A stretch of DNA of 64,000 nt, from assembly GCA_009914755.4 (NCBI GenBank), contig CP086569.2:352001-416000 (forward strand), written 5' to 3'. This DNA comes from the human T2T-CHM13v2.0 reference genome, Homo sapiens. Below are positions 55,285 through 56,930 of the stretch, one piece after another. A program made the translations under genes and the position numbers. Every line of letters begins with the position of its first letter. The first letter of the stretch is position 1. The notes below the pieces were generated by a model, which was given only the letters and a program-made list of their open reading frames with translations, did not search any database and was not told the DNA's origin.

Positions 55285-56930
55285 CTGCTCTGGAGAGGGG
55301 ACGTATGGAGAAGCTGCTCTGGAGAGGGGATATATGGGGAGGCTGCTCTGGAGAGGGGATGTATGGAGAGGGGACGTATGGAGAAGCTGCTCTGGAGAGG
55401 GGATGTATGGGGAGGCTGCTCTGGAGAGGGGACATATGGAGAGGCTGCTCTGGAGAGGGGATATATGGGGAGGCTGCTCTGGAGAGGGGACATATGGAGA
55501 GGCTGCTCTGGAGAGGGCATGTATGGAGAGGCTGCTCTGGAGAGGGACATACGGAGAAGGTGCTCTAGAGAGGGGACGTATGGAGAAGGTGCTGTAGAGA
55601 GGGGATATATGGAGAGGCTGCTCTGGAGAGGGGACATATGGGGAGGCTGCTCTGGAGAGGGGATATATGGGGAGGCTGCTCTGGAGAGGGGATATATGGG
55701 GAGGCTGCTCTGGAGAGGGGATATATGGGGAGGCTGCTCTGGAGAGGGGACATATGGAGAGGCTGCTCTGGAGAGGGGACATATGGAGAGGCTGCTCTGG
55801 AGAGGGGACGTATGGGGAGGCTGCTCTGGAGAGGGGATATATGGGGAGGCTGCTCTGGAGAGGGGACATATGGAGAGGCTGCTCTGGAGAGGGCATGTAT
55901 GGAGAGGCTGCTCTGGAGAGGGGACATATGGAGAGGCTGCTCTGGAGAGGGGATGTATGGAGAGGCTGCTCTGGAGAGGGGATGTATGGAGAGGCTGCTC
56001 TGGAGAGGGCATGTATGGAGAGGCTGCTCTGGAGAGGGGACATATGGAGAGGCTGCTCTGGAGAGGGGATATATGGGGAGGCTGCTCTGGAGAGGGGACA
56101 TATGGAGAGGCTGCTCTGGAGAGGGGACATATGGAGAGGCTGCTCTGGAGAGGGGACGTATGGGGAGGCTGCTCTGGAGAGGGGATATATGGGGAGGCTG
56201 CTCTGGAGAGGGGACATATGGAGAGGCTGCTCTGGAGAGGGCATGTATGGAGAGGCTGCTCTGGAGAGGGGACATATGGAGAGGCTGCTCTGGAGAGGGG
56301 ATGTATGGAGAGGCTGCTCTGGAGAGGGGATGTATGGAGAGGCTGCTCTGGAGAGGGCATGTATGGAGAGGCTGCTCTGGAGAGGGGACATATGGAGAGG
56401 CTGCTCTGGAGAGGGGATATATGGGGAGGCTGCTCTGGAGAGGGGACGTATGGAGAGGCTGCTCTGGAGAGGGCATGTATGGAGAGGCTGCTCTGGAGAG
56501 GGGACATATGGAGAGGCTGCTCTGGAGAGGGGATATATGGGGAGGCTGCTCTGGAGAGGGGACATATGGAGAGGCTGCTCTGGAGAGGGCATGTATGGAG
56601 AGGCTGCTCTGGAGAGGGGACATATGGAGAGGCTGCTCTGGAGAGGGGATGTATGGAGAGGCTGCTCTGGAGAGGGGATGTATGGAGAGGCTGCTCTGGA
56701 GAGGGGACATATGGAGAGGCTGCTCTGGAGAGGGGATGTATGGGGAGGCTGCTCTGGAGAGGGGACATATGGAGAAGGTGCTGTAGAGAGGGGATATATG
56801 GAGAGGCTGCTCTGGAGAGGGGATATATGGGGAGGCTGTTCTGGAGAGGGGACGTATGGAGAGGCTGCTCTGGAGAGGGGATGTATGGAGAGAGGGGATG
56901 TATGGAGAGAGGGGATTTATGGAGAGGTCC
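55285..56930. repeat. Minisatellite, 29-bp unit x ~57 (atggagaggctgctctggagaggggacat)
   Basis: Exact 29-bp period. Variants: gacatat / gatatat / gatgtat / gacgtat / gcatgtat, and gagaggct / gggaggct. ORFs on both strands have a 29-aa period (3 x 29 = 87 bp), e.g. GEAALERGHMERLLWRGDIWRGCSGEGTY. Confidence 0.97.

What the first reader, a model, noticed from the sequence alone, without database searches (positions are those of the whole stretch)
55285..56930. 29-bp minisatellite x ~57 (atggagaggctgctctggagaggggacat) with four or more unit variants
Exact 29-bp period over about 1.65 kb. Because 29 is not a multiple of 3, all three frames on each strand stay open, giving the six overlapping 380-664-aa pseudo-ORFs with a 29-aa period. 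One GGGG run per unit lies on the + strand. The variant units (gacatat, gatatat, gatgtat, gacgtat, gcatgtat) are interspersed in a way that should distinguish alleles. A (GT)24 microsatellite lies 140 bp downstream.
Basis: seen in the sequence. Interest (0 to 1): 0.5.

Follow-up and report, generated by a model that had tools for sequence, protein, structure and literature searches.

The report
Ordinary 29-bp primate minisatellite (VNTR)
This is a real but ordinary non-coding minisatellite, about 56 copies of a G-rich 29-base unit in primate (probably human) DNA, and its long "open reading frames" are a by-product of a unit that happens to lack stop codons.

Summary
Window 55285-56927 is a head-to-tail array of a 29-bp G-rich unit: 54 full units, one 15-bp half unit, one 28-bp unit and a short 17-bp sub-repeat tail. 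The six 382-664-aa ORFs exist. Neither strand has a protein relative among 5.8 billion protein clusters, and the only Pfam hit (Statherin) is a roughly 10-residue motif multiplied by the repetition.

New detail:
- There are 16 unit types.
- The main variable dinucleotide takes the four states CG/TG/CA/TA, the pattern expected from CpG decay.
- The centre is a 348-bp (12-unit) higher-order block, duplicated exactly, with a partial third copy.
- Rare units sit at both edges.
- There is no hairpin, no canonical G-quadruplex, and no PRDM9, chi or Jeffreys core motif.

An avian contig recovered from a metagenome carries the same flanking conserved non-coding blocks but no tandem repeat. At the array's position the bird has one weakly unit-like copy. 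The array therefore expanded in situ after the bird-mammal split.

Verdict: a known kind of element with low interest. I could not determine the chromosomal locus or test polymorphism.

The parts
55285..56927 (+). Whole minisatellite: 54 full 29-bp units, one 15-bp and one 28-bp unit, and a 17-bp tail. G-rich on the + strand (G 768, C 195; GC 58.5%; GC skew +0.60; purines 69%).
55285..55652 (+). Degenerate 5' edge (units 1-13). It holds most of the rare unit types, the 15-bp half unit (55349-55363), the 28-bp unit (55538-55565) and two TAG-bearing units (55566, 55595).
   Evidence: Rare types make up 14 of 20 edge units against 3 of 36 interior units; the edge boundaries were chosen after seeing the data.
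55701..56447 (+). Higher-order repeat: a 348-bp (12-unit) block, unit string AAHBACADDCAB, present twice. 399 bp are exactly identical at an offset of 348 bp (55701-56099 = 56049-56447).
   Evidence: Unit-order shuffles never reach the offset-12 match count, 0 of 20000.
56513..56705 (+). Partial third copy of the higher-order block: 193 bp exactly identical to 55817-56009 and to 56165-56357.
56871..56927 (+). 3' tail of 17-bp sub-repeats (GAGAGGGGATGTATGGA x3.2). These are units that have lost the GGCTGCTCTG segment.
56928..57072 (+). Unique right flank directly abutting the array. It is homologous to avian contig L001 at about 8198-8290 (54 of 81 aligned columns identical; 0 of 3000 shuffles reach the score).
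57073..57122 (+). (TG)25 microsatellite, 145 bp downstream of the array. It is absent from the bird orthologue.
53627..54047 (.). Upstream conserved non-coding block, 71-78% identical to L001 7139-7545.
57113..57735 (.). Downstream conserved non-coding block, 72-75% identical to L001 8327-8919. It is rich in TAAT/ATTA sites.

Best explanation
This is a neutral, non-coding GC-rich minisatellite (VNTR-type tandem repeat) in primate, most likely human, DNA.

Inferred origin: a single-copy sequence of about 29 bp lay between two conserved non-coding blocks. The unit contains an internal 8-bp direct repeat (TGGAGAGG...TGGAGAGG, spaced 15+14 bp). This sequence was tandemly amplified in situ in the mammalian or primate lineage.

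Inferred growth and turnover: replication slippage and unequal exchange or gene conversion act on blocks of several units. The latest visible event is an exact duplication of a 12-unit, 348-bp block. Slippage between the internal 8-bp repeats produced the 15-bp half unit and the 17-bp tail.

Inferred source of variation: one CpG per ancestral unit (GACGTAT) decayed by methyl-cytosine deamination on either strand to TG, CA and TA. Block duplications then copied these variants around. The array edges take little part in exchange and keep old, degenerate units.

The six long ORFs are a side effect of a unit without stop triplets. No function is required. The only plausible effects are on the spacing of neighbouring conserved elements and a modest G-quadruplex propensity on the G-rich strand.

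What is shown: the array, its unit map, the higher-order duplication, the lack of protein homology, the absence of the array in a bird orthologue, and the conserved flanks. What is inferred: the mutation mechanisms, the CpG-decay direction and the neutrality.
For: - The array and its statistics are confirmed.
- The unit map has 16 types, and 399 bp are exactly identical at a 348-bp offset with a 193-bp third copy. The offset-12 periodicity of the unit string is never reached in 20000 shuffles.
- The main variable dinucleotide takes only the four transition-related states: CA 18, TA 13, TG 15, CG 7 among the 53 full-length 29-bp units; counting the three irregular units by 7-mer context gives CA 18, TA 13, TG 17, CG 7 plus one unit with a shifted CpG. 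Only 8 CpGs remain in the array.
- Rare units are concentrated at both edges.
- The irregular units are explained by the internal TGGAGAGG sub-repeat.
- There is no protein homology on either strand, no Pfam domain that passes on its own and no Rfam family.
- The unit is free of stop triplets on both strands, as are 7.8% of shuffled units.
- Avian contig L001 is identified as bird DNA by a CR1-type reverse transcriptase 79-84% identical to stork, crane and godwit proteins. It has the same flanking blocks in the same order, 0.8 kb apart instead of 3.1 kb, and no tandem repeat at all.
- The array's right flank aligns with the bird right up to the array boundary.
- The bird sequence directly 5' of that boundary, CTGCTCAGTGGGAAGACGATGTTGAG, resembles one unit and keeps the CpG.
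- The flanks are single copy in the window, with no poly-A or target-site duplication.
- GC-rich VNTRs with units longer than 15 bp are abundant and well described in human DNA (PMC7608644; PMC8327921).
Against: - Copy-number polymorphism, the defining property of a VNTR, could not be tested because only one allele is available.
- The proto-unit match in the bird is only suggestive: 73 of 5000 shuffles and 2% of L001 windows score as well.
- The left boundary has no precise anchor in the bird.
- The CpG-decay direction is inferred from the state pattern and the bird CpG, not from an outgroup array.
- The edge-versus-centre boundaries were chosen after seeing the data.
- Neutrality is assumed. 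The position between two deeply conserved blocks leaves room for a regulatory effect.
Confidence: 0.9

Rival explanations
1. The array is a regulatory VNTR. It lies between two amniote-conserved non-coding blocks, so its length or G-rich units (G-quadruplexes, zinc-finger protein sites) might modulate a nearby developmental gene. Its length would then be under some selection.
For: - Conserved blocks lie 1.2 kb upstream and 0.19 kb downstream, and the right flank is conserved up to the array edge.
- Units with two GGGG runs reach G4Hunter 1.5-1.72.
- VNTR length and motif effects on expression are documented genome-wide (PMC10234305; bioRxiv 10.1101/2020.12.16.423078).
Against: - The array is absent from the bird orthologue, so the conserved elements work without it.
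- No canonical G4 motif is present with loops <=12 nt, and the array's mean G4Hunter score is 1.04.
- No PRDM9, chi or minisatellite core motif is present.
- No expression or chromatin data are available here.
Confidence: 0.07
2. The array encodes a repeat protein with a 29-aa period, such as a proline-rich, statherin-like secreted protein from the minus strand.
For: Long ORFs of 382-664 aa occur in all six frames. Pfam Statherin whole-sequence scores of 37-45 bits exceed the 25-bit cut-off for the three minus-strand ORFs.
Against: - No stretch passes on its own in the Pfam hit. The match to statherin is 10-11 identical residues in 22-25 (PY.P.PEQPL), repeated many times.
- No homologue was found for either strand.
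- The period is not a multiple of 3, and all six frames are open to a similar extent, which a stop-free unit gives trivially.
- Variation is dominated by CpG-type transitions with no frame preference.
- The bird orthologue has no such sequence.
Confidence: 0.01
3. The array was delivered by, or is part of, a transposable or composite element (such as an SVA-type VNTR), or is one copy of a multi-locus satellite family.
For: The window is dense in Alu elements (at least 40 copies) and holds Alu-derived tandem arrays. The reverse complement of the 44-bp VNTR unit at 9159-11932 shares 18 of 23 nt with the unit's purine core.
Against: - The flanks are unique and show no poly-A, target-site duplication or Alu/SINE-R parts at the boundaries.
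- The right flank is orthologous to the bird up to the boundary, and the bird has a unit-like single copy there.
- The unit occurs nowhere else in the window.
- No transposon library (Dfam) and no human genome were available for a direct test.
Confidence: 0.02

Closest known systems
Human GC-rich minisatellites / VNTRs with variant-repeat maps, as catalogued genome-wide (PMC7608644; PMC8327921; PMC8096271) and studied by MVR mapping (PMC2599865; PMC2674676)
   Same: The unit is 29 bp and there are about 56 head-to-tail copies. One strand is G-rich. Variant units are interspersed, multi-unit blocks are duplicated, and the edges are degenerate. The array is non-coding and sits in a window that is about 30% tandem repeat.
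   Different: Copy-number polymorphism was not shown here. GC content of 58.5% is just under the >60% class that PMC7608644 finds enriched in subtelomeres. The chromosomal position is unknown.
Jeffreys 'core' hypervariable minisatellites (core GGAGGTGGGCAGGARG, as listed in PMC9069542)
   Same: A G-rich strand and a unit of tens of bp. TGGAG, the 'WGGAG polymerase arrest site' of PMC9069542, occurs 93 times in the array against about 15 in shuffles.
   Different: The core is absent: the best match is 9 of 16, which more than 95% of shuffled units reach. Chi is also absent, at 5 of 8. This is not a member of that probe-defined family.
G-quadruplex-forming minisatellites such as CEB1 (named from my own knowledge, not tested here)
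   Same: GGGG runs on one strand. Units of types B, F, H, M and O carry two runs 6 nt apart.
   Different: No four-run motif is present with loops <=12 nt. Motifs appear only with 15-nt loops, in runs of B-type units. G4Hunter never reaches 2.
Higher-order repeat organisation of satellites
   Same: A 12-unit, 348-bp super-period with exact copies.
   Different: There are only about 2.9 copies within 1 kb. This is a recent local block duplication, not a homogenised satellite domain.

Membership tests
Minisatellite / VNTR | Head-to-tail tandem array with a unit of about 10-100 bp and many copies | tested here: met
   Period 29, about 56 copies, 91% matches, 0% indels. 52 pattern matches against 0 expected.
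Minisatellite / VNTR | Copy number varies between individuals | not testable with these tools
   Only one allele is available. No human or primate assemblies could be reached: the unit was absent from the metagenome, prokaryote and viral collections.
Minisatellite / VNTR | Interspersed variant repeat units (an MVR-type internal map) | tested here: met
   16 unit types. Unit string: EBJEFABACKLGMBBBAAHBACADDCABAAHBACADDCABICABACADDAFNGOIP.
Minisatellite / VNTR | Not a coding repeat | tested here: met
   No homologue on either strand. The Pfam Statherin hit is a repetition artefact. All six frames are open.
Jeffreys core-sharing hypervariable minisatellites | Contains the core GGAGGTGGGCAGGARG or a close variant | tested here: not met
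   The best match is 9 of 16, reached by 1916-1971 of 2000 shuffled units. The core sequence was taken from PMC9069542.
Jeffreys core-sharing hypervariable minisatellites | High germline instability with polarity next to a recombination hotspot | not testable with these tools
   This needs pedigrees or sperm typing. No PRDM9 13-mer is present within 1 mismatch.
G-quadruplex-forming minisatellite | Four or more G3+ runs with short loops, repeated along the array | tested here: not met
   0 motifs with loops <=7 or <=12 nt, and 22 overlapping hits only at loops <=15 nt. G4Hunter mean 1.04, maximum 1.72, with 9% of windows >=1.5.
Coding tandem repeat (proline-rich / statherin-like) | Unit length a multiple of 3, one preferred frame, and homologous proteins | tested here: not met
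   The unit is 29 bp, six frames are open and there are no homologues. The statherin match is confined to a roughly 10-residue motif.
Transposon-borne VNTR (SVA-type) | Array embedded in element parts, with a poly-A tail and target-site duplication | tested here: not met
   The boundaries were read directly. The flanks are unique and orthologous to the bird on the 3' side. No Dfam library was available for a formal test.
Structure-prone (hairpin-forming) repeat | Single strands fold markedly better than shuffled sequence | tested here: not met
   DNA folding of 87-116-nt pieces of both strands gave z-scores from -1.2 to +0.7.

The most novel reading that the evidence does not exclude
The array is a lineage-specific insertion of about 1.6 kb of G-rich repeats between two enhancer-like elements conserved since the bird-mammal ancestor. 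Its length or unit composition might then act as a tunable spacer or binding platform that changes expression of a nearby developmental gene, making it a functional regulatory VNTR in a conserved non-coding cluster.
Probability: 0.06. Interest if true: 0.5.

Novelty: already known. Interest (0 to 1): 0.15.

Why it matters
As a class this is textbook. Tens of thousands of such arrays exist in the human genome and are listed in tandem-repeat catalogues (for example, more than 55,000 VNTRs in PMC8327921).

The locus has modest practical value. Its unit map has 16 types and a recent 348-bp block duplication, so it should be informative for allele discrimination and for studying repeat turnover with long reads.

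The only mildly unusual point is the setting. The array grew out of a single-copy sequence sandwiched between non-coding blocks conserved from birds to primates. Length variation here changes the spacing of probable enhancers. That is a testable lead, not a demonstrated effect.

Tried and rejected
- **Protein homology.** I ran two whole-database searches, one per strand, and found nothing. Pfam gave only Statherin. I rejected it because no stretch passes alone and the BLASTP match is a repeated PY.P.PEQPL motif.
- **RNA families.** Rfam found none in the window, which also rules out an rDNA unit. I had briefly considered rDNA because of the CpG-rich flanks and long pyrimidine tracts.
- **Other copies of the unit.** Scans of metagenome, prokaryote-genome and viral collections gave 0 hits.
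- **Literature.** Full-text searches for the unit and for three other repeat units of the window gave 0 hits. Searches of the supplements of five VNTR papers found either no held files or no match.
- **Locus.** The chromosomal locus stays unidentified. Pfam on ten non-repeat ORFs of the window found nothing.
- **Secondary structure and motifs.** No hairpins, no canonical G4, no PRDM9 13-mer, no Jeffreys core or chi.
- **Segmental duplication.** The flanks are not duplicated within the window. The 18-of-23 resemblance to the 44-bp VNTR unit was not supported by BLAST or by the flanks. I treat it as shared G-rich composition or an unresolved lead.
- **Conserved 24-mer.** A second scan of prokaryote genomes for it found nothing.

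Full report
**Observation.** Tandem Repeats Finder reports a period-29 array at 55285-55371 (3.0 copies) and 55364-56892 (52.8 copies, 91% matches, no indels, score 2470). A 17-bp sub-repeat follows at 56873-56926. Cutting the sequence at the TGGAGAGGG anchor gives 56 units. 53 of the 55 spacings are exactly 29 bp, one is 15 bp (55349) and one is 28 bp (55538). A degenerate 29-mer matches 52 times, all inside the array, against none in 100 shuffles. The array ends at 56927. (TG)25 lies at 57073-57122, 145 bp downstream. "Exact period", "one GGGG per unit" and "four or more variants" need the small corrections listed under the observation check.

**Anatomy.** The array is 58.5% GC and strongly asymmetric: G 768 against C 195, with 69% purines on the + strand.
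- Each unit is itself two half-units that share an 8-bp start: TGGAGAGG-GGAYRTA (15 bp) and TGGRGAGG-CTGCTC (14 bp). This explains the 15-bp half unit and the 17-bp tail as slippage between the internal repeats.
- There are 16 unit types. Types A, B, C and D make up 39 of the 56 units.
- Variation among the full-length units is confined to nine columns.
- The dominant variable site is a Y-R dinucleotide with states CA 18, TA 13, TG 15 and CG 7 among the 53 full-length units. These are exactly the four states linked by CpG-type transitions. Only 8 CpGs remain in the array.
- A second site (A/G at unit position 19) is linked to the TA state in 11 of 16 G-carrying units.

**Unit order.** The order is not random. 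The string EBJEFABACKLGMBBB-AAHBACADDCAB-AAHBACADDCAB-ICABACADDAFNGOIP contains a 12-unit block twice.
- At the base level, 399 bp are identical at an offset of 348 bp (55701-56099 = 56049-56447). A further 193 bp recur at 56513-56705.
- None of 20000 shuffles of the unit order reaches the observed offset-12 agreement at any offset from 2 to 20.
- Rare unit types cluster at the two edges: 14 of 20 edge units against 3 of 36 interior units. The edge boundaries were chosen after seeing the data.
- The same rare junction, GGTGCTGTAGAGAGGGGATATATGGAGAGG, occurs near both ends at 55588 and 56777.

**Coding test.** The six ORFs of 382-664 aa exist.
- The cyclic unit has no stop triplet in any phase on either strand, which 7.8% of shuffled units also achieve.
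- The + strand ORFs stop exactly at the rare TAG-bearing units (55566, 55595, 56784).
- Searches of the 5.8-billion-cluster protein collection with an array-only ORF from each strand returned nothing at E<=1e-3. The collection does contain annotated eukaryotic proteins.
- Pfam gave only Statherin for the minus-strand ORFs. No individual stretch passed. BLASTP against statherin (sequence from my own memory of UniProt P02808) shows 10-11 identities in 22-25 residues, the same PY.P.PEQPL motif at every repeat. This is a repetition artefact.
- Rfam finds no RNA family anywhere in the window.

**Structure and motif tests.** Single strands do not fold better than shuffles, with z-scores from -1.2 to +0.7.
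- No G-quadruplex motif exists with loops up to 12 nt. Hits appear only with 15-nt loops in runs of B-type units. G4Hunter averages 1.04 with a maximum of 1.72.
- There is no PRDM9 13-mer within one mismatch.
- The Jeffreys core (sequence as given in PMC9069542) and chi match no better than in shuffled units.
- TGGAG, listed as a polymerase arrest site in PMC9069542, occurs 93 times against about 15 in shuffles. This is a consequence of the unit sequence and at most a lead for slippage.

**Context and origin.** The window is primate DNA, with at least 40 Alu copies. About 30% of it is tandem repeat. The array's flanks are single copy in the window.

A 24-nt string from the right flank retrieved one metagenome contig, L001, of 14.6 kb. 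L001 is avian genomic DNA: its 261-aa ORF is a CR1-type reverse transcriptase, 79-84% identical to proteins of Mycteria, Grus and Limosa.

Three blocks are collinear and conserved between the window and L001:

| Window | L001 |
|---|---|
| 46138-46281 | 134-279 |
| 53627-54047 | 7139-7545 |
| 57113-57735 | 8327-8919 |

The last two blocks are 0.8 kb apart in the bird and 3.1 kb apart in the window. The difference is accounted for by about 0.7 kb of Alu sequence and the 1.64-kb array. TRF finds no tandem repeat in L001.

The window's right flank (56928-57072) aligns with L001 right up to the array boundary: 54 of 81 columns are identical, and 0 of 3000 shuffles reach the score. Directly 5' of that boundary the bird has CTGCTCAGTGGGAAGACGATGTTGAG. 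This resembles one unit (CTGCTCTGGAGAGGGGACGTATGGAGAG) and keeps the CpG, but the match is only suggestive: 73 of 5000 shuffles and 2% of L001 windows score as well. I conclude that the array expanded in situ after the bird-mammal split. I cannot date it more finely.

**Mechanism.** The following points are inference.
- A short segment with an internal direct repeat was duplicated.
- It then expanded by slippage and unequal exchange or conversion of multi-unit blocks. The exact 348-bp duplication is the most recent event.
- The single CpG per unit decayed by deamination on either strand, and the products were spread by block duplication.
- The edges, which seldom take part in exchange, retain old variants.

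This is the standard model for minisatellite evolution (PMC2599865; PMC2674676; PMC7608644). Nothing seen here departs from it.

**Comparison and novelty.** The array meets the structural definition of a minisatellite/VNTR. Polymorphism is untested. It is not a Jeffreys-core minisatellite, not a canonical G4 minisatellite, not a coding repeat, and shows no transposon hallmarks. I could not identify the chromosomal locus or confirm its entry in a repeat catalogue. Even so, arrays of this kind in assembled primate genomes are routinely annotated, so I rate it as already known and of low interest (0.15). The one lead worth a look is its position between deeply conserved, homeodomain-site-rich non-coding blocks.

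Noticed in passing
window 23052-29294: A 6.2-kb tandem array with 67/132/199-bp periods (95% matches). It is 97% pyrimidine on the + strand (171 A and 5 G in 6243 nt), which makes it a strong candidate for triplex/H-DNA formation.
   Followed up: partly
window 9159-11932: A 44-bp x 63-copy C-rich VNTR (95% matches, no CpG). The reverse complement of its unit shares 18 of 23 nt (GGGAAAGGGGATGCAGGGAGAGG) with the purine core of the 29-bp unit, and 0 of 500 shuffles reach that. The flanks are unrelated, so common origin versus shared G-rich composition is unresolved.
   Followed up: partly
window 53627-54047, 57113-57735 and 46138-46281; L001 7139-7545, 8327-8919 and 134-279: Non-coding blocks 71-78% identical between this primate window and an avian contig. 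The block at 57113-57735 is dense in TAAT/ATTA homeodomain-type sites. This is probably a conserved enhancer cluster near a developmental gene, which I could not identify.
   Followed up: partly
window 49852-51723: About 470 copies of (ATCC)n (1.9 kb, 71% matches), followed by TCTT-rich and CA-rich simple sequence up to about 52750.
   Followed up: no
window 32677-33945 and 54144-54717: Tandem arrays built from Alu fragments: 153-171-bp units x6-8 that include a (TTA)n stretch, and 188-bp units x3 just upstream of the 29-bp array.
   Followed up: no
window 2401-3565: An AT-rich array with nested periods of 17, 36, 80 and 396 bp (TCTATGTATCTA-type units).
   Followed up: no
window 53000-54000 and 57000-59000; whole window: CpG observed/expected is 0.36 over the window and 0.6-0.7 in unique sequence beside the array. 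From my own knowledge that is well above the usual human bulk value of about 0.2-0.25. The 29-bp array itself keeps only 8 CpGs.
   Followed up: no
L001 13787-14572 (- strand): Contig Ga0065711_1043603 from a JGI metagenome is host (bird) genomic DNA carrying a CR1 LINE reverse-transcriptase fragment. It is an example of host contamination that proved useful as an outgroup.
   Followed up: yes
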